Positions 2,590-50,921 of a stretch of 64,000 bases of DNA are shown piece after piece; position 1 is the stretch's first letter, and the number at the start of each line of letters is the position of its first letter. The notes beneath the pieces are model-generated. The model saw only the letters and a list, made by a program, of their open reading frames with translations, was not told where the DNA came from and searched no databases. This DNA comes from a virus. A program made the position numbers and the translations under genes. Location: IMG/VR virus record IMGVR_UViG_3300045988_132388; one strand, given 5' to 3'.

Positions 2590-2651
2590 TTAAAATTTTG
2601 TGTTTGTGTTGTTGTTATCCTGAATACAACCTTTTTACCAGTTGCTAAAGT

Positions 2652-2723
2652 TGCGGAGGAGGGACTCGAACCCTCGACCTCCTGGTTATGAGCCAAGCGA
2701 GCTGCCAGCTGCTACTACTCCGC
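2652..2723 (-). tRNA. tRNA-Met-like (anticodon CAT), imperfect
   Basis: The minus strand reads GCGGAGTAGTAGCAGCTGGCAGCTCGCTTGGCTCATAACCAGGAGGTCGAGGGTTCGAGTCCCTCCTCCGCA. The anticodon arm is CTTGG-CTCATAA-CCAGG and the T arm is GAGGG-TTCGAGT-CCCTC. The D loop contains GG. Only 6 clean acceptor base pairs form, the D stem has a T-C mismatch, and no CCA is encoded. Confidence 0.7.
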
Positions 2724-2841
2724 TGTGTTATCCGAATGCAAAAGTAAAAAACATCCTATTAAGGCTTTGGACGAAAAATGCCGTCATCCTCACAGACAAC
2801 GGCACCGGTAGATAAAAAAAAATCAAAAAAAGAAATCAGCT

Positions 2842-5148: not shown

Positions 5149-5541
5149 TTAACGGTTGTCTCCGTTACCGTCAATCAAGCCATGCTGCTGACGCGACTGA
5201 AGCTTTTCGAGGTTCTGCCGGCAGACATCTTCAAGACTGAAACCAAGCACAGAACATACTCCGGCTATCTGCCACATCACGTCGCCACATTTTTTCTCGA
5301 TGTCCTTGATTTCTTCCTCAGTCATGCCATGGAAGGTCTGTGTCAAGATGCGCTCTCCGTTCTTGTCACGATCGCTCGTGCCGATAAACAACTTGCCCTT
5401 GCGGATTGCTTTTGCAAGTTTGGAGTGTAGTTCACCCACCTCTCCGCAGAGATTCATTGTCATGTAGGCGATATTGTTACAAGTAGGCATGCAGGTAGTC
5501 ATTGCCTTCTGCTGATATTCATTCAAAGTAAGATTATCCAT
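5149..5541 (-). CDS. MazG-like nucleoside triphosphate pyrophosphohydrolase
   Basis: 130 aa. It shows the all-alpha MazG pattern: LNEYQQKAMTT, GEVGELHSKLAKAIR, CGDVMWQIAGV and NLEKLQSRQQHG..GNGD. Confidence 0.8.
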   Translation of the reverse strand: MDNLTLNEYQQKAMTTCMPTCNNIAYMTMNLCGEVGELHSKLAKAIRKGKLFIGTSDRDKNGERILTQTFHGMTEEEIKDIEKKCGDVMWQIAGVCSVLGFSLEDVCRQNLEKLQSRQQHGLIDGNGDNR

Positions 5542-5572
5542 AAACTAATTTGCGTTTTATTCAACTTTATGG

Positions 5573-6472
5573 TTATATATCAAAGTCGGGAATATATTCT
5601 CGCATTCTTCCTATTATAATTCCGCGTATCACACCGCACACGTATTTTGCGTTGGGATGTGCCTTGCCGGTAGTCTCATTGAAGCGTAGGTCAATGATAT
5701 GTTTCCACTCATTGAGGTTATAGGTGTAGGCAACCACGGTGTAAGTGTCGAGAGGTAAAATGCCACGTGCGTCCTGCGGTTGCAGTCCGGCTCTCAGCAG
5801 ACGGGTATATATCCATGAGCTGAAGCGGCAAGCTGTCCGGTAGAGGAATCGCTGACGGCGTGTACCAGCATGATACCATTCGGGCTCGGCTATCTGTACT
5901 CCTCCTTTCTTCTCCAGGTTACAGTAACGGGTACTTTGCTCGGCAATAGCGTTGGGGGATGTACGGTTGAGCTCTCGCGAGGTGCTTATCTGTGTGGTGA
6001 CAACGAACGTCATACGCAAGAGCCACAAAGCTGCATTGCATTTGGCTTTCACAGCCCGACGAATAAACTCTTCCTCGTCTATCTGGAACGGCATAAGCAT
6101 GTTCTTCAACTGCTCTTGCTCGCACAAAAACTGCAGATTGGTACTAATCCATACCTTGCTGCCCTTTACGGCATAGGATATATAAGGCGAGGCAACCATC
6201 AAAGACCATACCAGGGTAGTATGCAATTGCTTCTCGTTAGGCACGAAGAAATATGCGGTAGCATGGCGAAACATGGAGCGGTGTCCGCTTTCCCAGAAAC
6301 TCTTGCTACGCAACATGTCGCGCTCATGCAAGAAAGCCTTGCGTTCTTCGCCATCAAGACCTGGATCGGGCAGCTTGCCCTCACTCTTGTAACATATCCT
6401 GCCTACATCGGCGATATGTTGTGCAAAATCTTTCATTGGCCACCAAGCCACAGAGGGATCTATAAATTTCAT
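5573..6472 (-). CDS. ThyX-like (flavin-dependent thymidylate synthase fold) protein with a divergent active-site motif
   Basis: 299 aa. SGHRSMFRH aligns to the ThyX GHETPFEH motif. SRELNRTSPNAIAEQSTRY aligns to RQWFRHRIASYNELSGRY, so RHR is replaced by R-T-S. ARGILPLDTYT...NLNEWKHIIDLR aligns to AR.vLPL....N.R.l..f..LR. Confidence 0.75.
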   Translation of the reverse strand: MKFIDPSVAWWPMKDFAQHIADVGRICYKSEGKLPDPGLDGEERKAFLHERDMLRSKSFWESGHRSMFRHATAYFFVPNEKQLHTTLVWSLMVASPYISYAVKGSKVWISTNLQFLCEQEQLKNMLMPFQIDEEEFIRRAVKAKCNAALWLLRMTFVVTTQISTSRELNRTSPNAIAEQSTRYCNLEKKGGVQIAEPEWYHAGTRRQRFLYRTACRFSSWIYTRLLRAGLQPQDARGILPLDTYTVVAYTYNLNEWKHIIDLRFNETTGKAHPNAKYVCGVIRGIIIGRMREYIPDFDI

Positions 6473-6498: not shown

Positions 6499-7080
6499 TT
6501 AATCAGTAAAAGTAGACGAGGTTTCGCCAAAGGGACTGAGCTTATCCATGACAAATGGTATAGTACAGACATATTGCGCTACTTTATAGCGTAGGTCTTC
6601 TTTCGACATACCTCCATTGTTAAATATTCTGCGGTCGAATTTAATCCCCATAGCTGCATTCAGACGCTCCACGTCCCGCAATATACGTGAGAGCTTGACA
6701 CCTCTTGCCAAACGTGTTACTGTAGAACTTTTGATATAAAAGGAATATATCTGAATTTCGGGATGACGATCTTTCATGTCTATCAATCCGACTTCATCCA
6801 CAATATAGATAGCTATATCTTTCACCTGATCTACAGTAGCCCAATATTCATAGCCACCATACTGTGTATATGCTAACACCTCATCAGGATCCACATTAAA
6901 CTCTTTTACAAAATGATGCTCTCTGCCTTCCTGTTCTCCTTCACGCATAGGACGTGTGGTATAGGAACAGATAATAGGCCAGTCTGTCATTTCTGACATT
7001 ATCCGAGCTACAGTGTCCTTTCCTGCACCGCTCAGACCGGTAATTGTTATTAGTTTCATATCAATCTTCTTTATATTCAC
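6499..7080 (-). CDS. guanylate-kinase-like dNMP kinase
   Basis: 193 aa. It has the P-loop ITGLSGAGKDT and YTTRPMREGEQEGREHHFV, a GMP-kinase-type motif. The start could instead be the internal Met at 7059, which would remove the 20-nt overlap with the upstream gene. Confidence 0.8.
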   Translation of the reverse strand: MNIKKIDMKLITITGLSGAGKDTVARIMSEMTDWPIICSYTTRPMREGEQEGREHHFVKEFNVDPDEVLAYTQYGGYEYWATVDQVKDIAIYIVDEVGLIDMKDRHPEIQIYSFYIKSSTVTRLARGVKLSRILRDVERLNAAMGIKFDRRIFNNGGMSKEDLRYKVAQYVCTIPFVMDKLSPFGETSSTFTD

Positions 7081-8167
7081 TCAAAAGAGCGTTGCCGCAG
7101 GTTATTCTATCCTCGTCCTCTTCCACAGAAGGAACAAAAACAATCACATCCCAACCTGCCTTGACAAGCGGTTGTTCAAACTGTTTGTAAACATCGTATG
7201 TGTAATATCCCTCCTCAGTCTGAATGCCATTACTTATAGCCTCTTTTGTCTCGTGAATAGGAGTTATCTTTACAATGAACTTTTCCTTATCAAAGAGTTT
7301 GTCCAAAACGGCAGGGTCTAATATCGTGTCTTTAGTGACAGGAAAATTCAACGTGTACTTTCTGCCGACCGGCATAGGTAAATCACGGCAAATCTCTGAG
7401 ATTTCCTGCAAAGTCAAGGATCGACCACGGAACAAATCATTACGCTGCTCTTCATCTGTAGAGTTTATAGACAACTGCAATCCGGCTTCACCTCTAAACT
7501 CGTAGTTCTTGAGTTGACAGAACTCACCAAGAATACGTTTCAGAGTTTTGCTTCCCAAAGAACCCGGAAGCATGGTCGTAAATACAGGATGGATAACATC
7601 TGCATCCATGAATACGTTGACATCATCCCTGAGATAGCACAGCAAATATATCTTGATGTTATTCCAGTTGAATGACGGTTCGCCCATACGAGCCAGATGA
7701 AGGTTGAAACGCTTGGTGTGCTGACACTCCGAACGAACGATAGCCGATATTACTTCTTCTCGCAGATCGCTAACCTTAGCATTACCGTGGAAACCGACTT
7801 TAGGGCAGTCACAGAACTTACATTTCATCGGACATCCTTTTTGAGTGGAAATAGTAACAACCATCTTATCCTCAAGATCTACCTTCTTATGGGTTACACC
7901 ATTAATTTCCTTAGTCAATCCAAGGAAGTCCGCCTTTATGTTGGCTTCCTTGCCATAGTCGCCAACATATAAATATTCAAGACATTTTTTAGTATCACTA
8001 AAAATTGCTCCAGTACGAGTCTTAGATTCTTTAATCATAATAGAAATACATATCGTTTTATTGATATTTTCAATCTTTAATTCAAATGGACGAGAAGTTA
8101 TAAAACGAGGTGAGCCACATTCTTTATACGGCACTTCTGTGATAGTGATGGCGATAGTGATAGCCAC
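7061..8167 (-). CDS. RlmN/Cfr-like radical SAM RNA methyltransferase homologue
   Basis: [36 protein letters not shown] parallels the E. coli RlmN stretch [47 protein letters not shown] parallels MGMGEPLLNLNNV. The C-terminal ITCGNAL parallels AACGQL. The annotated start is GTG at 8167; an ATG at 8038 is an alternative. Confidence 0.75.
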   Translation of the reverse strand: [368 protein letters not shown]

Positions 8168-8190
8168 CGCAGTCGGGTGATAGTGATAGC
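8141..8190. repeat. three copies of GATAGTGAT(G/A)GC
   Basis: Copies lie at 8141-8152, 8153-8164 (in tandem with the first) and 8179-8190. They sit between the tRNA-like RNA and the radical SAM gene. If the GTG start is real they encode AITIAITI; otherwise they lie in the leader. Confidence 0.6.
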
Positions 8191-8204
8191 GAAATAAAAG
8201 ATGT

Positions 8205-8350
8205 TGACTGCGGAGTGATTTTCGCGCAATACTTGCTCTAACCAGCTGAGCTACTTTTCTTCCGAAAAGAAAAGATAGGATTCGAACCTATGACCTCGTG
8301 AGACACGTTTCGGAAAAACGTATGATTCACTAAAAAGAAAACTCCGTATG
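8205..8350 (-). ncRNA. circularly permuted tRNA-like RNA (YrlA/Y-RNA-like topology)
   Basis: The minus strand from 8300 to 8231 reads AGGTC ATAGG-TTCGAAT-CCTAT CTTTTCTT-TTCGG-AAGAAAAG TA GCTC-AGCTGGTTA-GAGC A. In order this gives variable loop, T arm, both acceptor strands closed by a loop, U8-A9, D arm and A26. There is no anticodon arm. The flanks (8337-8346 and 8211-8223) are complementary. Outer boundaries are approximate. Confidence 0.6.
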
Positions 8351-8426
8351 CTATCAGTGTGAGGGTCAGTTTCACGGTACAAAACCTTCAGTCTGACCTT
8401 ACCCACCTCGTATTATATTTTATGTT

Positions 8427-9350
8427 TTACAAACCGTTGACCTCCGCATATATTCCCTGGAGATTATTAGGGATGATAATGCGCAGAGACGTTATCTCTT
8501 TGATTTCTTCCTGTTGCCACTCAACGAACATCGTCTGTAATCTCGACATTTCGGTATCGAAATTGTTTCTCTTTTCTTGATGTTCTGCATACTTCTTCTT
8601 GTATTCAGCCAATCGCTTGCTGTACTCCTTCTCGGCTTCAATGCGGAAACGATGCTCAATACCATTAAACTCAGCTTGCAATGCTCGATATTCGCCCTGA
8701 AGCTGAAAGAAGGTCCTGTTCAGTCGGTCGATGGTACCGGGTTCAACATTATAAGAGAACACGACCATATCGCGGCCTTCACCTTCTATCTCCGTAGGAT
8801 TAGCCAGACGGTGTGACACTCTCTTCAAGGCCAGAGGCAACAGTCCGTCGGGATGAATATACTTACCATACACCGCCATCTTGGTTTTCAACTCAATATA
8901 GCGGTTGCGATCCTTTACGTTCAGAATCTCGTTGCCCACCTTGTCAATATCGGAAACGGGGTCAGGAGCAACCGGCTTTTCAGGAAGAGTAATATTGTGA
9001 TCGTCAGCCCACACCATGAAGTTGCAGTCTTGCACTGACTTCAAACCTTTCTCACGTTCATTGATAGCCTCACGCAGCCAACCGATAAGGGCATTGCACT
9101 GAGCTACGCGACGTATAACATCGGGAATAGCATCAAGGGTGTCAAGAGGGGCTTCCACAATCGACGGCTGTGTATCCCCAAGCAGACGTGCGCTCTTGGT
9201 GTAAAGACGTAAGGTATCAGCCTGCGCTAAGATGCGCTGCGCATACTCTTTAGCCATGTTTGCAACATGGTTAGCAGATGTGGCTGTCAAACCTTCTTTC
9301 GCAAAAAATACTTTGTTCATATATATCGTTTTTTGTTCGTATTTTAACAT
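8427..9350 (-). CDS. hypothetical protein
   Basis: 307-aa ORF. An alternative start exists at the Met 10 codons downstream. No motif recognised. Confidence 0.7.
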   Translation of the reverse strand: MLKYEQKTIYMNKVFFAKEGLTATSANHVANMAKEYAQRILAQADTLRLYTKSARLLGDTQPSIVEAPLDTLDAIPDVIRRVAQCNALIGWLREAINEREKGLKSVQDCNFMVWADDHNITLPEKPVAPDPVSDIDKVGNEILNVKDRNRYIELKTKMAVYGKYIHPDGLLPLALKRVSHRLANPTEIEGEGRDMVVFSYNVEPGTIDRLNRTFFQLQGEYRALQAEFNGIEHRFRIEAEKEYSKRLAEYKKKYAEHQEKRNNFDTEMSRLQTMFVEWQQEEIKEITSLRIIIPNNLQGIYAEVNGL

Positions 9351-9514: not shown

Positions 9515-10618
9515 TCAATTCGTTCTTCCATATATTTCCCGCAGTTCTTCACGTGTAAGGAAAATATCACTCTTATGACACATTTTTATGAAAGTGTTTT
9601 CTGTTACTTTCGGATAATTGGCAAACTGCGGCCACATTCTTCTTAACTCCGACTCACGACGAGCATTAGAATCTGGTGGACGGAAACGTGATATACGTCT
9701 CCACATATCCAGTCCTGCCACATGGTCAATGCTATATAAAGAAATGCCACACTTCACCCACTCTTCATAATTACCCATAATGTCAATACCTTTTGCTTCT
9801 ATCTTGCTCACCAAACGCTGAGCCTTGAGGTAAACAATATCGGGAGTATCATCCTCCCAAGAAAATTTGCGGTATCCAGGATTACAACCCGAAGCACCAT
9901 TCGACACGTGCGAAAAGGTTCGATGATAACATGGCGCTGGTGTCAGTTCCACTTCGCTTACATTAAGCCCCTTGTACGCCACGGCACCTTTATTTATATA
10001 TATATGCCCAGGATCATCCCACGAGGCAAAGCGTACACGACCAATATTGCCACACTGTCTGTCGAGCATAATACCGAAAGCAGCATACTCTTTTAGTAGG
10101 GCTTTAAATTGTTCCTTATGTCGGTCCGGATAAGCAAGACGTACTAAGCCGAAACATCCCATACCACTACACGAACGCATCAATAAGGCTATCTCAGGGC
10201 GGAACTGGCAGACCATGCGGATATTCTCGAAATTGCTCAGTTGAGCATTATCTGCCAAGTCAATGTCTATGGCGAGCCATCCGGTATGCTGCTTCAGATG
10301 GGTTTCACGGCGCGACACAGGGGCGATATATTTGCTTCCGTCACGACGAGTACATTCGTCGTTGCGTATCTCAAAGAGTCCGCTCAATGTAGCACCAGGT
10401 AATCGCTTCTTGGTTTTAATATACTCAGGCATTTTCTTTGCCTTGGCTCCATACTCCTGGCGCAGGGCGCGAAGATGCTCCACATACGGCTTCCACCTTT
10501 CCGTCAGACAAAACTCACGGATAGACATCTGCTGAATACACTCCCCTGTCTCTTGGTCTACATATCGACCTACATTGTCAAGTGCGTCAGAATATATGGA
10601 ACATATCTCGTCGAACAT
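9515..10618 (-). CDS. VirE-N/BT4734-like primase-type domain protein
   Basis: 367 aa. TGWLAIDIDL, MRSCSGMGCFGLVRL and GRVRFASWDD resemble the primase-polymerase-like domain common in Bacteroidota mobile elements. The family call is from memory. Confidence 0.55.
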   Translation of the reverse strand: MFDEICSIYSDALDNVGRYVDQETGECIQQMSIREFCLTERWKPYVEHLRALRQEYGAKAKKMPEYIKTKKRLPGATLSGLFEIRNDECTRRDGSKYIAPVSRRETHLKQHTGWLAIDIDLADNAQLSNFENIRMVCQFRPEIALLMRSCSGMGCFGLVRLAYPDRHKEQFKALLKEYAAFGIMLDRQCGNIGRVRFASWDDPGHIYINKGAVAYKGLNVSEVELTPAPCYHRTFSHVSNGASGCNPGYRKFSWEDDTPDIVYLKAQRLVSKIEAKGIDIMGNYEEWVKCGISLYSIDHVAGLDMWRRISRFRPPDSNARRESELRRMWPQFANYPKVTENTFIKMCHKSDIFLTREELREIYGRTN

Positions 10619-13397: not shown

Positions 13398-14303
13398 ATG
13401 GAACTACGACATCTACGATCTTTTGTTTATGTGGCGGAAACTCTTTCATTTTCTGTCGCCGCCGACCGATGTTGCGTCACGCAATCGGCAATCAGTCAAC
13501 ACATCAAAACCCTGGAGGAAGAGCTGGGATGCAAACTACTAATTCGTACCTCGCACGACATTACGCTTACAGAATACGGCGAAGCTCTTTTGCCTCGCGC
13601 AAAGGACATACTAAAGCAGACCGCCGACTGTAAAGAACATATACATGCACTAAACAACTGCATGACCGGTGAGTTGCGTATTGGTGTTGGTTCGTTTATC
13701 GCTCCATATATCCGCGAGGCTGCAATCATTTTTATGGAGCGTTACCCTAACGTAAGGCTTAATGCTGAAATGACAAAAGCCACCAGCCTGAACCATCTGT
13801 TACGCAACCACGAACTCGACATAGCGTTCACGATGAACACAGCATATAAGAATGAGGGTATTGAATCTATACCGTGCATACCCTTCCATATCTACGCCAT
13901 AATGCGCAACACCCATCCATTGGCAAAACTGCCGGAGGTGTCATATAAGGATATGCTCTGCCACAGCGTTATTATGCCGGCTGTGGGGGAACGTGTGTTC
14001 AATACCTTTCAGCAATATATGCGACACGACCTTACGAAGCTCAACATCAAGTGTATAGTAAGTGATCCTGACGAAGACCTTGCTATCGTGGAGGAAAAAC
14101 AAAGCATAACTTTTATGCCTAAGCTTTATCTGAAGAACCACCCTACCCTCGTTGCCAAACCTATTGCTGAACTAAAGACAGCCCTTATGAGTAATGCTCA
14201 CTATATGCAGGACGTGCCTCTCAAACGCTCCGCACAGATATTCCTTGACATTATAAGACAAGAAGCAATACCATATATCCAGGAATTGGAGAAAACCTAT
14301 TGA
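13398..14303 (+). CDS. LysR-family transcriptional regulator
   Basis: 301 aa. The N-terminal wHTH signature is MELRHLRSFVYVAETLSFSVAADRCCVTQSAISQHIKTLEEELGCKLLIRT, and a C-terminal effector-binding-size domain follows. Confidence 0.9.
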   Translation: MELRHLRSFVYVAETLSFSVAADRCCVTQSAISQHIKTLEEELGCKLLIRTSHDITLTEYGEALLPRAKDILKQTADCKEHIHALNNCMTGELRIGVGSFIAPYIREAAIIFMERYPNVRLNAEMTKATSLNHLLRNHELDIAFTMNTAYKNEGIESIPCIPFHIYAIMRNTHPLAKLPEVSYKDMLCHSVIMPAVGERVFNTFQQYMRHDLTKLNIKCIVSDPDEDLAIVEEKQSITFMPKLYLKNHPTLVAKPIAELKTALMSNAHYMQDVPLKRSAQIFLDIIRQEAIPYIQELEKTY

Positions 14304-24655: not shown

Positions 24656-25687
24656 ATGGAGTTAAACATTACGCTTTCTGAAGCATTGGAGCGAGCTTCG
24701 GAAGGACTGCGAAAGAAGATGCTTCACTCAGTGGAGCTACTGCAAAAAGCAGAGAGGATTGCTCTGAACTATGATGCCGAGAATGGATATTACTTAGCGT
24801 TTAGTGGTGGAAAGGACTCTCAAACTCTTTTCCACATAACTCAGTTAGCTGGAGTTAAATTCCACGGTCACATGAGTCTAACAAGCATTGATCCACCCGA
24901 AGTGATACGTTTCGCAAAGAAGAACTATCCCGAAGTGGAACTGCTAAAGCCTGGCAAATCAATCTTCCAGCACGCTGTAGAAAATCAAATTCTGCCCACT
25001 ATGCGTGTGCGTTGGTGTTGCGCTGAATACAAGGAGACGGCAGGTGCTGGCAAGGTTACGCTAATCGGCATCCGCAAGGCAGAGAGCACACGCCGAGCCA
25101 AGCGAAATGAGGTGGAAATAAACAACCGAAAGTTTAGCGGCGATCTTGACGGTCTCGACGAATACCGACAGGAGCAGAAGGCTAAACGTGCTCGTCGCAA
25201 ATCTAAAGAGCAAGGTGTGAACATCACAAATGCTGATGAAGAAAAGACGTTAGGTTGCATCCACGGCAAAGAGAGTCTGCTGATCTCGCCCATCATCTAT
25301 TGGACGGAAAAGGACGTATGGGAGTTCCTCAACGATGTAGTGAGGGTTCCACATTGCTCGCTTTACGATGAGGGTTGGCATCGCATAGGTTGCATAGGCT
25401 GCCCAATGTCGTCTGCAAAGCAGAAGCGCATCGAGAACGAACGTTATCCGCACGTAAAACGAAACTGGATTAAGGCGATTAAAGCCATCCGAAACGGGGG
25501 GGGTATTCAAAAAAGAATATATCTGGTGGAACATCCGGAAGGACTGGATGCCTCTCAGAAATGTCAGAGGATTGCTCAGGACGCAGGCGGCTACATCAAG
25601 CATTCAGACCCAAAACACTGGATGGGGAGGAAGAATACGAGGAGCAGCTATGCCAACACCAGGGGTTTCATCCAGCTCCTCTTCTGA
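24656..25687 (+). CDS. PAPS-reductase / PP-loop ATPase family protein
   Basis: It has the PP-loop YLAFSGGKDSQTLFHI and the C-terminal Cys pair GCIGCPM. The 3' end is uncertain because of a G8 tract at 25496-25503. Confidence 0.8.
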   Translation: MELNITLSEALERASEGLRKKMLHSVELLQKAERIALNYDAENGYYLAFSGGKDSQTLFHITQLAGVKFHGHMSLTSIDPPEVIRFAKKNYPEVELLKPGKSIFQHAVENQILPTMRVRWCCAEYKETAGAGKVTLIGIRKAESTRRAKRNEVEINNRKFSGDLDGLDEYRQEQKAKRARRKSKEQGVNITNADEEKTLGCIHGKESLLISPIIYWTEKDVWEFLNDVVRVPHCSLYDEGWHRIGCIGCPMSSAKQKRIENERYPHVKRNWIKAIKAIRNGGGIQKRIYLVEHPEGLDASQKCQRIAQDAGGYIKHSDPKHWMGRKNTRSSYANTRGFIQLLF

Positions 25688-25820
25688 CCGCTTGACAGAG
25701 GAGCAAGAGAACGAAATAGCGGAGAATATCTACGATTGGTGGATTTCGGGCAAATCATACAAACAATGGTATGCCGAGAAATTCCAACAGATGAAATTTG
25801 ACTTTGGGGAGGAATTATAA
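25548..25820 (+). CDS. possible alternative 3' extension of the PAPS-reductase-like gene (frame +1)
   Basis: 90-aa ORF overlapping the 3' end of 24656..25687. Its frame is open all the way back to the G8 tract. The ending ...EQENEIAENIYDWWISGKSYKQWYAEKF looks protein-like. Confidence 0.3.
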   Translation: MPLRNVRGLLRTQAATSSIQTQNTGWGGRIRGAAMPTPGVSSSSSSDRLTEEQENEIAENIYDWWISGKSYKQWYAEKFQQMKFDFGEEL

Positions 25821-25876
25821 ACAACACAAAACAACACACAATATGAACAACAAACTAAACGGAAAGGAGGTCCACA

Positions 25877-26470
25877 ATGGCTAAGGACTGGGTGGGCGGC
25901 TCGGCTGCTGTATTCAAGACATTAGGCGCAAGCAACCATACGGATGCGGATCGGCAGCGGGAGGATTACTATGCCACTGAGCCGAAAGCGACGGAATGGC
26001 TGTGCAAGCTGGAGCGATTTGAGGGAAGGATATTGGAACCTTCGTGTGGCGAGGGTCACATGAGCGAGGTGCTGAAAGCAGCAGGGTATGAGGTGGTGAG
26101 CCGCGACCTTGTGGATAGAGGTTACGGTGAGGTGGCCGACTTCCTCGCAATAGACAACTTGGCGTGGAACGGAAACATCGTCACCAATCCGCCCTACAAA
26201 TTCGCGCAGCAGTTTGTGGAGAAGGCCCTAAGCATCATCCCCGAAGGAAAGAAGGTGGCGATGTTCCTGAAACTGACTTTCCTTGAAGGCAAGGCGCGAC
26301 GCGCTCTCTTCCGTTCTACTCCCCCCATTCGTGTTTGGGTAAGTTCGTCACGACTGAAATGTGCTCCCAACGGAGATTTCAATGCTATTGTTGGCAGCGC
26401 AGCGGCATACGCATGGTTCGTATGGGAGAAAGGATATAAAGGCGAGACAACTGTGAAATGGTTTAACTGA
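25877..26470 (+). CDS. DNA N6-adenine methyltransferase (small, NPPY type)
   Basis: 197 aa with AdoMet motif EPSCGEGHM and catalytic motif IVTNPPY. Confidence 0.75.
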   Translation: MAKDWVGGSAAVFKTLGASNHTDADRQREDYYATEPKATEWLCKLERFEGRILEPSCGEGHMSEVLKAAGYEVVSRDLVDRGYGEVADFLAIDNLAWNGNIVTNPPYKFAQQFVEKALSIIPEGKKVAMFLKLTFLEGKARRALFRSTPPIRVWVSSSRLKCAPNGDFNAIVGSAAAYAWFVWEKGYKGETTVKWFN

Positions 26471-26492
26471 TAGAATTACAAAACGACAAAGC

Positions 26493-27263
26493 ATGATAGA
26501 ACTGAATAAGATATATAATGAGGACTGCCTGGAAGGGATGAAACGGATTCCTGACGGGAGCGTGGATTGCATTGTGTGCGATTTGCCGTATGAAGTTCTG
26601 AACAAAGGCAATGAAAAAGTACGATGGGATAACATTATCCCGATAAAGCCTCTATTCAAGGAGTACTGGCGAATAGCGAAAACTAACGCTCCCATTATTC
26701 TCTTCGGTCAAGGAATGTTTACGGCACAGCTAATGATGGCAGAGCCAGACACATGGCGATATAATCTAATTTGGCAAAAAGACAGACCAACAGGCTTTCT
26801 TAATGCGAAGCGTATGCCTATGCGAAGCCATGAGGATATTGCTGTGTTCTACCGTGCGTTACCTACATACAATCCACAAATGAGACAGGGTTCCCCCTCT
26901 CATTCACGAGGACATAAACAAGGAAAAGCAAGGGGTAATGCTTGTTATGGCAACTATAATATTGAGACCTACTCAAAAGAAGCAACAACAGAGAAATATC
27001 CTATATCTGTATTGTTATTCGACAAAGAAAAGAATCTTGATATGCACCCCACCCAAAAACCTGTCGCTCTTATTCAGTATCTCATCCGTACCTACTCCAA
27101 CGAGGGCGACACCATCTTGGACAACTGTATGGGCAGCGGCACCACCGCCATTGCTTGTATAAAAGAGAAGCGCAACTTCATCGGCTTCGAGCTCAACAAG
27201 GAGTATTACGACAAAGCTTGCAAGCGCATCAAACTGGAGCTGGCGCAACCCACTCTCTTCTGA
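26493..27263 (+). CDS. DNA methyltransferase, beta-class (N6A/N4C)
   Basis: 256 aa. The catalytic CDLPYEV motif is N-terminal and the AdoMet motif DNCMGSGTTAIAC is C-terminal. FIGFELNKEYY is also present. Confidence 0.85.
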   Translation: MIELNKIYNEDCLEGMKRIPDGSVDCIVCDLPYEVLNKGNEKVRWDNIIPIKPLFKEYWRIAKTNAPIILFGQGMFTAQLMMAEPDTWRYNLIWQKDRPTGFLNAKRMPMRSHEDIAVFYRALPTYNPQMRQGSPSHSRGHKQGKARGNACYGNYNIETYSKEATTEKYPISVLLFDKEKNLDMHPTQKPVALIQYLIRTYSNEGDTILDNCMGSGTTAIACIKEKRNFIGFELNKEYYDKACKRIKLELAQPTLF

Positions 27264-36272: not shown

Positions 36273-37454
36273 TTAGTCGTTAATTACGACGGGCATTATG
36301 AGCGCAAGCACTGATGGCGATGGCTCATCGGCGGTAAGCACGGCAGCACGGGTCTTGTCGGAGAGCTCCATGCGGATGGCGTCTCCCGGCACCGCACTTA
36401 TCGTTGAGCGGAGGTGAACACCGTTGAAGGCTATATAGAAGCCATCCTCGCATTGGGAGTTATGAAGCAGCACCTGGTCGGATGCCGAAAGTGAAAAGTC
36501 TGCATTGTCGGCAGAGATATTGAAGAACATACCGTCCTTGCGCAAGATGACGCTATTGTCCGCTTCAGAAGCAAACAGTCCTACTCTCTTCAGGATAGCA
36601 AGCATTTCCCTTTTGTCGAAGACGACAAAGAACGGATTGCCACGCGGAATTACAGCGTTATAGTTGGGGTATCTGCTCTCCAACGCCTTGCAGATATACT
36701 CTATGTTGCCGGAAGTAAAGCGGATAATGTGGTTGTCGCTCTCAACGGTTATCTCCTCGCAATTCTGGAAGGCCGCAAAAGGTTTGAAATAACTCATGTG
36801 GAGGATTATCTTCTCCGGCTTGCCACTACGGAAGAAGTCGTAACCGTTCTTTGCGGGGTCGTTGCTAAGAGTTTGTTTGAAGAGCCTATGACCGTCGGAA
36901 CCCACGAAATATACAGAAGAAAGATCGTCGGAAACATCAATACACAGACTGCTCAATGCCGGACGGATTTCGTCGTTTGCCAAGAAGTCCGTCACTTTTG
37001 ACAGGACGTCGCCGAACAATGCCATCGGCAGGACTATCTTTATGGCATCTTCGCCTGGTGTAGTAATCTGTGGAAACTCGTCGGCATCCAGCCATGTGAG
37101 CTGTGCTTTACCGGTCTTCACGTTGTCGTCAGCACCATGACAATACTCTACCGCGAGCGAATGGTCGTCGTTGAAGGTGAAGTTTACGGTGCAGTCCGGC
37201 AATGTGGCGAGGAACGGCATGATGAACTTGATAGGCAGCACGACGGACTTGAATGTGCCTTCCACGATACTCAGAGGGGCAGGGATGGTAAGACGTGAGT
37301 CCGATGTTGCCGAGGTGAAATAGAACCCACCGTCAGCATGCTGCGTCAGAAGCACATTGTCAAGAATGGCAATGGTATTTTTGCTTGCGATACAACGTGC
37401 TGACTTCTGAAAAGCGATGTTGAGCTCGCATGATGATTTAGCTTGAAGTTTCAT
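36273..37454 (-). CDS. dnaN: DNA polymerase III beta sliding clamp homologue
   Basis: 393 aa. The N-terminus (MKLQAKSSCELNIAFQKSARCIASKNTIAILDNVLLTQ) follows the beta-clamp pattern, and the length fits three domains. Confidence 0.75.
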   Translation of the reverse strand: MKLQAKSSCELNIAFQKSARCIASKNTIAILDNVLLTQHADGGFYFTSATSDSRLTIPAPLSIVEGTFKSVVLPIKFIMPFLATLPDCTVNFTFNDDHSLAVEYCHGADDNVKTGKAQLTWLDADEFPQITTPGEDAIKIVLPMALFGDVLSKVTDFLANDEIRPALSSLCIDVSDDLSSVYFVGSDGHRLFKQTLSNDPAKNGYDFFRSGKPEKIILHMSYFKPFAAFQNCEEITVESDNHIIRFTSGNIEYICKALESRYPNYNAVIPRGNPFFVVFDKREMLAILKRVGLFASEADNSVILRKDGMFFNISADNADFSLSASDQVLLHNSQCEDGFYIAFNGVHLRSTISAVPGDAIRMELSDKTRAAVLTADEPSPSVLALIMPVVIND

Positions 37455-50045: not shown

Positions 50046-50921
50046 TTAAAACGTGAAACTGTTGATTATTTCCTTAGTAAAACGCTCATAGTCCTGCCCC
50101 ACCCTACAATATGGTGCATAAGAAAAAATATCCTCACGCATAGCCTGAGCTTCCACCATCTTCGTATCGCGACGTGTGTAAGCGTCAAACATATAGTCCT
50201 GGTACTTCTCACCCAGGTATGCTTTAAACTCCTTTGTGGCGTTCGTCTGGTCGTTACTCATAACCATCAGCAAGCCACGAATATCAAGGTCAGGATTCAA
50301 ATCCTCGCGCGTCTCCTCGATGGCATTGATAATCTCGGCAATACCTTTTGTCGCCAATACTTCGAGCTGCACGGGCAATACCACGCTTGTGGCTGCTGTC
50401 AGTGCGTTGTACGTGAGCAACGACATGGCAGGGGGACAGTCTATCAGCACGTAGTCGAAAGCTTCCGTAACGGTCGTTACGCCCTCGTCTGCCAGTTCTG
50501 TACCGCTCAACTCGTTCAGTGGTTTTGTGAGCAACTTATAAAGTGCCTTGCGGGGCATGGCTCTCTGGTTTAGGAAGGGTTCGATGGATATAAGTTGTGA
50601 AGCTGCCGGAGCGAGATAGATGCCATCGCGTACCTGATAGATGGGCAGATTGCTCTGCTGTACCAATGCGTCGTAGACGGTAGGCTTGCCAACGTTCTGA
50701 GTCTCGCTCCATCCGAAGAGGAACGATGCACATGCCTGGGGATCGAGGTCTATGATGAGCACACGCGGTAAACGCTTGTGTCCGTCGGCATCCGTGCCAA
50801 ATTTTCCCTTACCAAAGATGCGCAGTCCTGCTGCCAAGCTCTGTACTGTTGTTGTCTTACCTACTCCCCCCTTATGGTTTACGAAGGCAAGAACTTCTCT
50901 TAGTCTTTCCATATTCTTCAA
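50046..50921 (-). CDS. parA: ParA-family partition ATPase
   Basis: 291 aa with the deviant Walker A motif VNHKGGVGKTTT. VLIDCPP and other ParA/Soj-type motifs are also present. Confidence 0.9.
   Translation of the reverse strand: MKNMERLREVLAFVNHKGGVGKTTTVQSLAAGLRIFGKGKFGTDADGHKRLPRVLIIDLDPQACASFLFGWSETQNVGKPTVYDALVQQSNLPIYQVRDGIYLAPAASQLISIEPFLNQRAMPRKALYKLLTKPLNELSGTELADEGVTTVTEAFDYVLIDCPPAMSLLTYNALTAATSVVLPVQLEVLATKGIAEIINAIEETREDLNPDLDIRGLLMVMSNDQTNATKEFKAYLGEKYQDYMFDAYTRRDTKMVEAQAMREDIFSYAPYCRVGQDYERFTKEIINSFTF

What the first reader, a model, noticed from the sequence alone, without database searches (positions are those of the whole stretch)
7061..8167. Phage RlmN/Cfr-like radical SAM enzyme apparently lacking the resolving cysteine
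The protein aligns by eye with RlmN across four regions: the cluster region ([13 protein letters not shown] vs [13 protein letters not shown]), the MGEP motif, the LS(L/I).(A/S)..(D/E)E.R block, and the C-terminal methyl-carrying Cys (ITCGNAL vs AACGQL).

Seven residues before the first cluster Cys, RlmN has its second mechanistic Cys (LCVSSQ). The phage protein has Thr at that position (VVTISTQ). In RlmN, loss of that Cys traps a covalent enzyme-RNA adduct. An extra Cys in FCDCP might substitute for it.

A phage-borne member of a family that methylates A2503 of 23S rRNA and A37 of tRNAs is unusual in itself, and this one sits next to a tRNA mimic. The function could be ribosome or tRNA reprogramming, antibiotic-type resistance (Cfr-like), or covalent capture of an RNA.
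Basis: partly seen in the sequence, partly recalled or inferred. Interest (0 to 1): 0.75.

Follow-up and report, generated by a model that had tools for sequence, protein, structure and literature searches.

The report
Phage RlmN-like enzyme, one cysteine short
This gut-phage gene encodes an intact radical SAM enzyme from a large, unstudied sister branch of the RNA methylases RlmN and Cfr that keeps their methyl-carrying cysteine but has lost the second catalytic cysteine and the N-terminal domain, so it probably does related chemistry on a different, still unknown substrate.

Summary
The ORF at 7061-8167(-) is real, although the true gene is probably 7061-8038, starting at M44 (325 aa). Sequence, profile and fold comparisons all place RlmN and Cfr as its closest known relatives. 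The alignment puts Thr62 at RlmN C118, C69/C73/C76 at the cluster cysteines and C314 at C355. In 537 family sequences the C118 position is never a conserved Cys (T407, I29, N12, M9, V6, A5 of 481 aligned), while C314 is Cys in 459 of 463. The extra "FCDC" Cys alternates with Val or Ala, so it is not an essential substitute.

The protein fails the RlmN and Cfr curated cut-offs (41.7 vs 290 bits) and has no counterpart of RlmN residues 1-108. It is acidic (pI 5.7, against 8.2 for the RlmN core).

The adjacent tRNA-like RNA belongs to a movable cassette with gene 8427-9350, not to this gene. Relatives are fused to an ECF transporter component plus an MTA/SAH nucleosidase, to isochorismatase-type hydrolases, or to flavoprotein reductases. 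Some sit inside phage NAD-salvage operons.

My best reading is a class-A-type radical SAM enzyme acting on a small heterocyclic metabolite. The substrate is unknown.

The parts
7061..8038 (-). Radical SAM gene, most likely true CDS (325 aa plus stop; ATG at 8038-8036, TGA at 7063-7061)
   Evidence: Homologues are 318-330 aa and cover 87-88% of the long ORF. Coordinates checked by translation. PHROG 24834 E 3e-98. AF2 model pLDDT 91, pTM 0.90.
8039..8167 (-). In-frame upstream extension of the mechanical ORF (GTG start), probably not translated
   Evidence: Almost none of the listed homologues extends over this stretch. It lies in the cassette junction region that L097-L100 lack.
7811..7834 (-). 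CxxxCxxC motif (C69, C73, C76) that binds the [4Fe-4S]/SAM cluster
   Evidence: Invariant in the family. Aligned with RlmN C125/C129/C132.
7853..7855 (-). Thr62 codon at the position of the RlmN resolving Cys118
   Evidence: Gap-free alignment [11 protein letters not shown] / [11 protein letters not shown]. Family residues T407, I29, N12, M9, V6, A5, no conserved Cys.
7805..7807 (-). Cys78, the extra Cys of FCDCP; not conserved
   Evidence: C337/V86/A51 in 486 aligned sequences. Val in P0122, P0124, P0126, P0127 and P0128.
7676..7690 (-). R117-M-G-E-P121 motif (the RlmN GMGEP equivalent); R117 is specific to this family
   Evidence: Invariant or nearly so. Aligned with RlmN MGMGEP.
7094..7099 (-). 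Cys314-Gly315 in the C-terminal loop, equivalent to the RlmN methyl-carrier Cys355
   Evidence: RITCGNAL aligned with DAACGQLA. Cys in 459/463 and Gly in 463/463.
6499..7059 (-). Guanylate-kinase-like dNMP kinase. Its ATG lies 1 nt after the enzyme's stop codon, and it is the conserved downstream neighbour in this phage lineage.
   Evidence: Pfam Guanylate_kin and PHROG 1815. The order enzyme-kinase-ThyX-like-MazG is kept in L097-L100. Start position.
5149..6472 (-). ThyX-like gene (5573-6472) and MazG-like pyrophosphatase gene (5149-5541), same strand and the same conserved block in this lineage
   Evidence: Pfam Thy1 4e-22 and MazG 5.5e-9. Synteny.

Best explanation
The gene encodes an intact, probably active member of an uncharacterised sister clade of the class A radical SAM methylases (RlmN/Cfr).

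Shown here:
- It has the RlmN/Cfr fold.
- It has the cluster-binding CxxxCxxC and the SAM-region MGEP motif.
- It has the C-terminal loop cysteine (C314) that carries the methyl group in RlmN.
- It has no counterpart of RlmN residues 1-108, its N-terminal domain.
- It lacks the second catalytic cysteine (C118), and this holds across the whole family.

Inferred mechanism:
1. One SAM methylates C314.
2. A second SAM is cleaved at the cluster. Electrons come from NAD(P)H through a flavoprotein, which is encoded next door or fused in many relatives; in this phage the host would supply it.
3. The 5'-deoxyadenosyl radical activates the S-methyl group.
4. The resulting radical attacks an sp2 carbon of a nitrogen heterocycle.
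5. The enzyme-substrate thioether is resolved by something other than a second cysteine: another conserved base, or the chemistry of the substrate itself.
6. SAH and 5'-deoxyadenosine are the by-products.

Inferred substrate class: a small metabolite (a base, nucleoside, nucleotide or pyridine cofactor) rather than rRNA or tRNA. The strongest contextual lead is NAD/niacin salvage.

In phages the gene behaves as a self-sufficient single-gene accessory module. In this lineage it sits in the nucleotide-metabolism block primase - enzyme - dNMP kinase - ThyX-like - MazG.
For: Classification:
- PDB phmmer.
- Profile against PDB: RlmN 4e-23, Cfr 6e-18.
- hhalign against E. coli RlmN: 98.8%, 5e-17.
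- Foldseek: RlmN TM 0.57-0.64, Cfr 0.51, all other radical SAM enzymes 0.47 or less.
- NCBIfam best hits are always RlmN or Cfr, for the window protein and for 10 distant relatives.

Cysteine pattern.

Electron supply:
- An FMN_red flavoprotein lies 0-36 nt downstream in 15 loci from 4 lineages.
- A thioredoxin-reductase-like flavoprotein lies directly upstream in 28 bacterial and archaeal loci.
- The flavoprotein is fused in P0259 and L068.

By-product removal: P0135 carries a C-terminal domain that passes the curated MTA/SAH nucleosidase cut-off (224 vs 169 bits).

Small-molecule lead:
- Relatives about 40% identical are fused to a QueT-family ECF transporter S component.
- Other relatives are fused to, or in an operon with, isochorismatase-family cysteine hydrolases.
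- The operon NAPRT - PncA-like - enzyme - NadE - DUF5662 - NrtR-like has 6-12 nt gaps.
- Vibrio phage PS17B-2 has Prs - NAMPT - enzyme.
- NadE and an NMN transporter occur as immediate neighbours.
- The protein is acidic: pI 5.7 (family median 5.8) against 8.2 for the RlmN core.

Autonomy: 92 different flanking architectures in 129 phage-like loci from 59 lineages.
Against: - No substrate or product is identified, and no natural C-methylated pyridine or similar product is known that would fit.
- Most phage lineages (about two thirds) show no informative neighbour, so the NAD link rests on 5 of 59 lineages plus the distant Vibrio phages.
- NAD-salvage genes, tRNA arrays, RtcB and RlaP all gather in phage accessory islands, so adjacency may reflect the island rather than a pathway.
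- The nearest characterised relatives act on RNA.
- The enzyme gene abuts tRNA arrays in 5 lineages and RtcB in 5.
- C314 could serve as a hydrogen-atom donor in non-methylating chemistry.
- The window itself encodes no flavoprotein partner, isochorismatase or NAD gene.
- The fused nucleosidase fits any radical SAM enzyme, not only a methylase.
Confidence: 0.45

Rival explanations
1. It is an RNA methyltransferase after all. A trimmed RlmN/Cfr-type enzyme would put m2A or m8A on tRNA, rRNA or another structured RNA during infection, for example to protect or re-mark tRNAs in the conflict over anticodon nucleases. A non-cysteine base would resolve the adduct.
For: - The nearest characterised relatives are RlmN and Cfr.
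- The gene lies within 300 nt of tRNA gene arrays in 5 of 59 phage lineages and within 8 kb in 16.
- RtcB lies within 3 kb in 5 lineages.
- RlaP appears among the immediate neighbours.
- Permuted tRNA-like RNAs lie within 8 kb in three lineages.
Against: - There is no counterpart of RlmN residues 1-108, its N-terminal domain.
- The protein is acidic.
- C118, which RlmN needs for turnover, is absent throughout the family.
- Close relatives are fused to a membrane transporter component, and others to isochorismatase hydrolases. Both are odd partners for an RNA enzyme.
- The tRNA-like neighbour in the window belongs to another cassette.
- The host already has RlmN (general knowledge).
Confidence: 0.2
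2. It is a 7-deazaguanine salvage enzyme of the QueL type. It would act on queuine or a related queuosine precursor taken from the gut to yield preQ1, with C314 as hydrogen donor rather than methyl carrier.
For: - Relatives about 40% identical have the architecture QueT-family ECF S component + this domain + nucleosidase.
- That architecture mirrors the C. difficile operon queK (nucleosidase) - qrtT (ECF S) - queL (radical SAM enzyme), as described in PMC11477304 and PMC11570991.
- The family is extremely abundant in gut samples.
Against: - A supplementary table of PMC11130926 files QueL (Q186P0) under IPR006638, the Elp3/MiaB/NifB-type radical SAM domain, not under an RlmN-type entry.
- The fused nucleosidase of P0135 is a canonical MTA/SAH nucleosidase by the curated cut-off.
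- No riboswitch of any kind was found in 14 loci, including the fusion loci L093 and L012.
- No TGT or DpdA-like ORF was found in the window or in the other fetched loci.
- The QueT Pfam scores are marginal: 30-40 bits against a cut-off of 33.7.
- The QueL sequence could not be obtained, so direct homology is untested.
Confidence: 0.1
3. It modifies a nucleotide or the phage DNA. In this lineage the enzyme, the dNMP kinase, the divergent ThyX-like protein and MazG would form a pathway that makes a non-canonical (C-methylated) deoxynucleotide for the phage genome.
For: - The block primase - enzyme - kinase - ThyX-like - MazG is conserved in W and L097-L100, and in L101 with the cassette inserted between enzyme and kinase.
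- The stop codon of the enzyme gene and the start codon of the kinase gene almost touch.
- The ThyX-like protein has RTS in place of the canonical RHR motif (read from the sequence; the canonical motif is from memory).
- The distant homologue in Moorella phage MTATph1 sits next to a thymidylate synthase.
Against: - The kinase, ThyX-like and MazG neighbours are confined to one of 59 lineages.
- The Moorella thymidylate synthase is not detectably related to the window's ThyX-like protein.
- No DNA-directed class A enzyme is known.
- Bacterial and archaeal relatives sit in metabolic-looking operons.
Confidence: 0.1
4. It is a single-turnover suicide enzyme. Lacking the resolving Cys, it would stay covalently attached to its target (RNA or another molecule), as RlmN C118A does.
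For: RlmN C118A is trapped on tRNA (PDB 5hr6 and 5hr7 descriptions), and this family has no Cys at that position.
Against: - Dedicated reductases and a by-product nucleosidase are fused or adjacent in relatives, which suggests multiple turnovers.
- The family is conserved in chromosomal operons of many bacterial and archaeal phyla.
- Crosslinking ribosomes or tRNAs would harm the phage.
Confidence: 0.03

Closest known systems
RlmN (dual-specificity 23S rRNA A2503 / tRNA A37 C2-methyltransferase; class A radical SAM methylase; PDB 3rfa, 5hr7, 6fz6)
   Same: - Same fold (TM 0.57-0.64).
- Homologous over RlmN residues 109-366.
- Shares the S-x-Q-x-G-C-x3-C-x2-C motif, MGEP, the S...(T/N)D..R block, and the C-terminal CG(Q/N) loop cysteine aligned with C355.
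   Different: - No Cys at the C118 position.
- No counterpart of residues 1-108; a roughly 55-residue beta-rich N-terminus instead.
- Only 14-16% identity in the structural alignment.
- 41.7 bits against a cut-off of 290.
- Acidic rather than basic core.
- Different gene partners.
Cfr (23S rRNA A2503 C8-methyltransferase, antibiotic resistance; PDB 9p0p)
   Same: Same class A fold and motifs. Profile E 6e-18 over Cfr residues 104-346, TM 0.51.
   Different: Scores of 16-18 bits against cut-offs of 468-550. It lacks the second catalytic Cys and the N-terminal domain. No resistance context.
QueL, the radical SAM queuine lyase of C. difficile (queK-qrtT-queL operon)
   Same: A radical SAM enzyme of gut organisms. 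The trio of transporter, nucleosidase and radical SAM enzyme is mirrored by the three-domain fusions among relatives.
   Different: - QueL is filed under a different InterPro domain.
- No riboswitch, TGT or queK-type hydrolase lies near family members.
- Homology could not be tested.
PHROG 24834 (phage protein family of unknown function) and COG0820-annotated phage proteins (for example the Pseudomonas phage 201phi2-1 radical SAM protein and the Bacteroides phage Versailles WAK79139.1)
   Same: The window protein is a full-length member (E 3e-98). The Versailles protein is 50% identical. The BFVD best matches have TM 0.62-0.68.
   Different: Nothing is known about their function. The only annotations are 'radical SAM domain-containing', 'hypothetical', or JGI's automatic '23S rRNA (adenine2503-C2)-methyltransferase'.

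Membership tests
RlmN/Cfr (class A radical SAM methylases) | CxxxCxxC radical SAM cluster motif in an RlmN-type partial TIM barrel | tested here: met
   C69/C73/C76 align with C125/C129/C132. The best Foldseek matches are RlmN and Cfr.
RlmN/Cfr (class A radical SAM methylases) | C-terminal loop cysteine that carries the methyl group (RlmN C355) | tested here: met
   C314 in RITCGNAL aligns with AACGQL. It is Cys in 459/463 relatives. Actual methylation was not tested.
RlmN/Cfr (class A radical SAM methylases) | Second catalytic cysteine that resolves the enzyme-substrate adduct (RlmN C118) | tested here: not met
   Thr62 sits at this position. The family reads T, I, N, M, V or A there and has no other conserved Cys.
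RlmN/Cfr (class A radical SAM methylases) | N-terminal accessory domain preceding the core (RlmN residues about 1-100) | tested here: not met
   hhalign and profile alignments start at RlmN residue 99-109. The model's N-terminus is made of short beta strands.
RlmN/Cfr (class A radical SAM methylases) | Score above the curated family cut-offs (TIGR00048, NF008396, TIGR04432, NF000424) | tested here: not met
   41.7 vs 290 bits, 30.4 vs 633, 16.4 vs 550 and 18.5 vs 530. The same holds for 10 distant relatives.
RlmN/Cfr (class A radical SAM methylases) | Methylation of A2503 in 23S rRNA and/or A37 in tRNA | not testable with these tools
   This needs expression followed by nucleoside mass spectrometry.
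QueL queuine lyase | Sequence homology to C. difficile CD1684 (Q186P0 / YP_001088187.1) | not testable with these tools
   The sequence was not retrievable. The only lead is that QueL is listed under IPR006638.
QueL queuine lyase | Clustering with a queuosine hydrolase, a Q-precursor transporter, a preQ1 riboswitch or TGT | tested here: inconclusive
   Some relatives are fused to a QueT-family S component. However, there is no Rfam riboswitch in 14 loci and no TGT-like ORF in the window or loci, and the fused nucleosidase is of the MTA/SAH type.
Functional pair with the adjacent Y-RNA-like / tRNA-like RNA | Conserved co-occurrence and fixed arrangement of enzyme gene and RNA | tested here: not met
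   The RNA is absent in L097-L100 (92-93% identical enzyme). In L101 and L013 it lies on the other side of the gene and always follows the homologue of gene 8427-9350. It was found near the enzyme in only 6 of about 176 loci.

The most novel reading that the evidence does not exclude
This family would be a third, non-RNA branch of class A radical SAM enzymes. Gut and marine phages would use it on a pyridine or purine cofactor or signal in the contest over NAD+. For example, it could C-methylate nicotinamide, nicotinate or an ADP-ribose-derived molecule. That would feed, protect or disguise the NAD pool when host defences deplete it. Turnover would rely on a one-cysteine mechanism not seen in RlmN or Cfr.
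Probability: 0.1. Interest if true: 0.9.

Novelty: new variant of a known kind. Interest (0 to 1): 0.6.

Why it matters
Class A radical SAM methylases are currently defined by two enzymes, RlmN and Cfr. Both act on RNA and both depend on two cysteines.

This family keeps only the methyl-carrier cysteine. It is very common: more than 6,600 database proteins, 500 IMG/VR viral contigs, and 479 sequences in the 90% cluster nearest the window protein. It also occurs in conserved operons in many bacterial and archaeal phyla.

If it is a methylase, it must complete the reaction in a way RlmN cannot, and probably on a non-RNA substrate. That would widen both the chemistry and the biology of the class, and would explain a frequent 'unknown' gene of gut phages.

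There is also a practical point. Automatic pipelines already label these proteins '23S rRNA (adenine2503-C2)-methyltransferase', which this analysis does not support.

Tried and rejected
1. QueL identity. I followed the QueT + enzyme + nucleosidase fusions into the queuosine-salvage literature. The key paper (PMC6754566) and the review (PMC10966956) are not held, and the QueL sequence could not be obtained. Indirect evidence leans against identity.
2. Riboswitch search near relatives: no Rfam match in 14 loci.
3. TGT or DpdA partner for 7-deazaguanine DNA modification: none by jackhmmer with E. coli Tgt in the window or in the other fetched loci. None among the 10 mid-size window ORFs scanned with Pfam.
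4. Anti-phage defence system: PADLOC gave nothing for the enzyme or its operon partners.
5. Annotated close phage relative of the window: megablast of 25 kb found none.
6. tRNA-mimic partnership: rejected by synteny.
7. C78 as a substitute for C118: rejected by conservation.
8. A covariance model for the tRNA-like element was abandoned, because MAFFT misaligned the variable acceptor hairpin. I used a structural descriptor scan with shuffled controls instead.
9. Homologues of the isochorismatase, thioredoxin-reductase-like, NadE, NAPRT and NrtR proteins in the window: none.
10. Literature on radical SAM genes in phage NAD-salvage or RNA-repair islands: none mentions such a gene.
Full report
**1. 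The observation**

ORF 7061-8167 on the minus strand is present (368 aa, GTG start). Its homologues are 318-330 aa long and cover 87-88% of it. The real start is therefore most likely the ATG at 8038-8036 (M44 of the long ORF), which gives 325 aa with the stop at 7063-7061. I number residues from that Met.

Pfam sees only the generic Radical_SAM domain, below its threshold (24.9 vs 29.5 bits). The best NCBIfam hits are RlmN and Cfr, but far below their cut-offs (41.7 vs 290 bits for TIGR00048; 16-18 vs 468-550 for the Cfr models). PHROGs places the protein full-length in phrog_24834, function unknown (E 3e-98).

**2. Relationship to RlmN and Cfr**

- phmmer against PDB sequences finds only RlmN, over the cluster-to-MGEP region.
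- A profile of 29 diverse relatives (A2) matches RlmN 6fz6 at E 4e-23, E. coli RlmN at 2e-19 and Cfr 9p0p at 6e-18. The match runs over profile positions 41-316 and includes the C-terminal motif.
- hhalign of A2 against authentic E. coli RlmN, taken from MG1655, gives 98.8% probability and E 5e-17. Window residues 53-325 align with RlmN 109-366.
- An AlphaFold2 model (pLDDT 91, pTM 0.90) finds RlmN structures first (TM 0.57-0.64), then Cfr (0.51). All other radical SAM enzymes score 0.47 or less.
- In the viral structure library the best matches are a COG0820-annotated protein of an uncultured phage and a radical SAM protein of Pseudomonas phage 201phi2-1.

The correspondences are:

| Window protein | E. 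coli RlmN |
|---|---|
| T62 | C118 |
| C69 / C73 / C76 | C125 / C129 / C132 |
| R117-MGEP | GMGEP |
| C314 (RITCGNAL) | C355 (AACGQL) |

Nothing in the protein aligns with RlmN residues 1-108. The model's first 55 or so residues are short beta strands.

**3. The cysteine pattern across the family**

I aligned 537 distinct relatives to the family HMM.

| Position | Residues observed |
|---|---|
| 62 (RlmN C118 equivalent) | T407, I29, N12, M9, V6, A5 |
| Cluster cysteines | 478/479, 483/486, 486/486 |
| C314 | Cys 459/463 |
| G315 | Gly 463/463 |
| C78 (extra Cys of FCDC) | C337, V86, A51 |

C78 changes to Val in close relatives (P0122, P0124, P0126, P0127) and within the transporter-fused clade (P0128). 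It cannot be an obligatory substitute for C118.

Apart from the three cluster cysteines and C314, no other cysteine is conserved. Other invariant or nearly invariant residues are E21, K58, S64, Q66, R117, E120, N124, Q188, S190, T194, R199, K257, P260 and E307.

**4. Size and spread of the family**

- The word-indexed search gave 6,626 significant hits among 8,000 candidates.
- The exhaustive search of 50%-identity representatives gave 644 clusters.
- IMG/VR holds 500 viral contigs with a relative.
- The 90% cluster nearest the window protein has 479 members.
- Contigs of 300-410 kb that carry the gene look like jumbo phages. They encode IF3, a sigma factor, TyrRS and tRNA arrays.
- Cultured-phage relatives include Bacteroides phage Versailles (50% identity). 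Distant ones (22-28%) occur in Vibrio, Salmonella, Pectobacterium, Yersinia and Moorella phages and in a crAss-like Kehishuvirus.
- A more distant group (about 30% identity) is chromosomal in Elusimicrobia, Thermotogae, Myxococcota, Chloroflexi, Acidobacteria, Asgard archaea, Methanomassiliicoccales and others.

**5. Gene partners**

Bacterial and archaeal group:
- A three-gene operon is conserved: an isochorismatase-family hydrolase (about 210 aa), a thioredoxin-reductase-like flavoprotein (about 300 aa; 28 loci), then the enzyme.
- The same partners appear as fusions. P0259 and L068 fuse the flavoprotein to the enzyme. P0224, P0270 and L085 fuse the enzyme to the isochorismatase.

Clade about 40% identical to the window protein:
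- It shows the architecture QueT-family ECF S component + enzyme, with or without a PNP_UDP_1 domain (P0128, P0129, P0135, P0155, P0271).
- The C-terminal domain of P0135 passes the curated cut-offs for MTA/SAH nucleosidase (224 vs 169 bits). This enzyme clears SAH and 5'-deoxyadenosine (general knowledge).

Phage-like loci:
- The 129 loci fall into 59 lineages at 85% identity and show 92 different flanking architectures. The gene therefore behaves as a mobile single-gene module.
- An NADPH-dependent FMN reductase lies directly downstream in 4 lineages (15 loci).
- NAD-salvage genes lie within 3 kb in 5 lineages and are adjacent in 3. One is the tight operon NAPRT - PncA-like nicotinamidase - enzyme - NadE - DUF5662 - NrtR-like.
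- RtcB lies within 3 kb in 5 lineages.
- tRNA genes lie within 300 nt in 5 lineages.
- A Pfam census of 141 immediate-neighbour clusters adds RlaP (2 clusters), an NMN transporter and various DNA methylases.
- In Vibrio phage PS17B-2 the distant homologue follows Prs and NAMPT.
- None of these partners is encoded in the window.

**6. The window's own context and the tRNA mimic**

On the minus strand the order is:
1. primase-like gene (9515-10618)
2. gene 8427-9350 (no family match)
3. tRNA-like RNA
4. the enzyme
5. guanylate-kinase-like dNMP kinase (start at 7059, 1 nt after the enzyme's stop)
6. ThyX-like gene
7. MazG

The intergenic RNA at 8205-8316 matches Rfam YrlA (Y RNA-like) at 33.6 bits, below the gathering score of 69 (E 1e-5 in a 401-nt search). 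Its core is a permuted tRNA: a T arm, an acceptor stem closed by a loop, then a D arm.

In the closest relatives (L097-L100, enzyme 92-93% identical) the stretch 8060-9318 is missing altogether. The order there is primase - enzyme - kinase - ThyX-like - MazG. In L101 and L013 (75% identical) the same stretch, meaning the homologue of gene 8427-9350 followed by the tRNA-like element, lies downstream of the enzyme gene.

So the RNA travels with gene 8427-9350, and its adjacency to the enzyme in this window is incidental. A structural descriptor scan found such modules in only 6 of about 176 loci, and none in shuffled controls.

**7. What it most likely does**

The retained C314 loop, the class A fold, the dedicated NAD(P)H-flavoprotein partners and the fused SAH/5'-deoxyadenosine nucleosidase fit a class-A-type reaction. 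In that reaction C314 is methylated by one SAM, a second SAM is cleaved reductively, and the S-methyl-derived radical attacks an sp2 carbon. The family-wide absence of C118 means the adduct must be resolved differently from RlmN.

Several observations argue for a small heterocyclic metabolite rather than rRNA or tRNA:
- the missing N-terminal domain;
- the acidic pI (5.7; family median 5.8; RlmN core 8.2);
- the fusions to a membrane transporter component and to amidohydrolases;
- the insertion into NAD-salvage operons.

NAD/niacin salvage is the best, though weak, lead. These steps are inferred, not shown.

The rivals are:
- an RNA methylase, supported by the tRNA-array, RtcB and RlaP neighbourhoods;
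- a QueL-like 7-deazaguanine salvage enzyme, supported by the transporter/nucleosidase architecture but weakened;
- a nucleotide or DNA modification enzyme tied to the kinase - ThyX-like - MazG block, which is specific to this lineage;
- a suicide crosslinker, which is unlikely given the accessory proteins that support turnover.

**8. Comparison with the known, and novelty**

The protein works like, and descends from the same stock as, RlmN and Cfr. It fails three of their defining features: the second catalytic Cys, the N-terminal domain and the curated score. It should not be filed as RlmN or Cfr, so JGI's automatic name is not supported.

I found no paper that describes this clade or a radical SAM gene in phage NAD-salvage or RNA-repair islands. 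I rate it a new variant of a known kind. It is real, abundant and mechanistically puzzling, but its function is unresolved.

Noticed in passing
window 8205-8316 (-), core 8235-8291; also L013 5214-5268, L101 10090-10144, L002 18192-18261, L106 15816-15884, L022 8947-9001: Permuted tRNA-like RNA (T arm, acceptor stem closed by a loop, D arm). It matches Rfam YrlA (Y RNA-like) at 33.6 bits, below the gathering score. In the window lineage it always follows the homologue of gene 8427-9350 as a 1.26-kb movable cassette. In jumbo-phage loci it sits inside tRNA arrays. No Ro/TROVE gene was looked for.
   Followed up: partly
window 8427-9350 (-): A 307-aa protein with no Pfam or PHROG match that travels with the tRNA-like RNA (homologues in L013 and L101). 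It is a candidate protein partner of that RNA.
   Followed up: partly
window 5573-6472 (-): ThyX-like protein (Pfam Thy1 4e-22) with a roughly 130-residue N-terminal extension. Its sequence reads R-T-S...A where, from memory, canonical ThyX has R-H-R...S. It may not be an ordinary thymidylate synthase.
   Followed up: no
L052-L092 (for example L052 4891-7413, L060 6450-8939): Conserved three-gene operon (isochorismatase-family hydrolase, thioredoxin-reductase-like flavoprotein, RlmN-like radical SAM enzyme) in at least 25 bacterial and archaeal species from many phyla, with fused versions. It looks like an uncharacterised metabolic module.
   Followed up: partly
P0128, P0129, P0135, P0155, P0271 (L093 1277-2995): Multidomain proteins made of a QueT-family ECF transporter S component, the radical SAM domain and, in some, an MTA/SAH nucleosidase. 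This is an unusual fusion of a membrane vitamin-transporter component to a radical SAM enzyme.
   Followed up: partly
L023 1030-6123, L051, L028, L024; L103, L105, L128; L094 1149-4840: Phage-encoded Preiss-Handler-type NAD salvage operons (NAPRT, PncA-like nicotinamidase, NadE, NrtR-like Nudix, DUF5662) with the radical SAM gene in the middle. In Vibrio phage PS17B-2 the order is Prs - NAMPT - homologue.
   Followed up: partly
window 13398-14303 (+), 50046-50921 (-), 36273-37454 (-): A LysR-family regulator, a ParA-type ATPase and a DNA polymerase III beta clamp, in a window that otherwise looks like a phage (head maturation protease at 904-2589). This may be a phage-plasmid or temperate element.
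   Followed up: no
window 24656-27263 (+): A PAPS-reductase-domain protein (24656-25687) and an N6/N4 DNA methylase (26493-27263) lie close together. This may be a DNA-modification module. Similar proteins occur near the enzyme in L070, L005, L036 and L042.
   Followed up: no
window 2650-2724 (-): The only canonical tRNA gene in the window, tRNA-Met (CAT). It lies about 4.3 kb from the radical SAM gene, and the same spacing is seen in L097-L100.
   Followed up: no
L048 1127-3476; L114, L122, L127, L131: An RtcB RNA ligase gene directly next to the radical SAM gene in several unrelated phage-like contigs. RlaP nucleotidyltransferases also appear among the immediate neighbours.
   Followed up: partly
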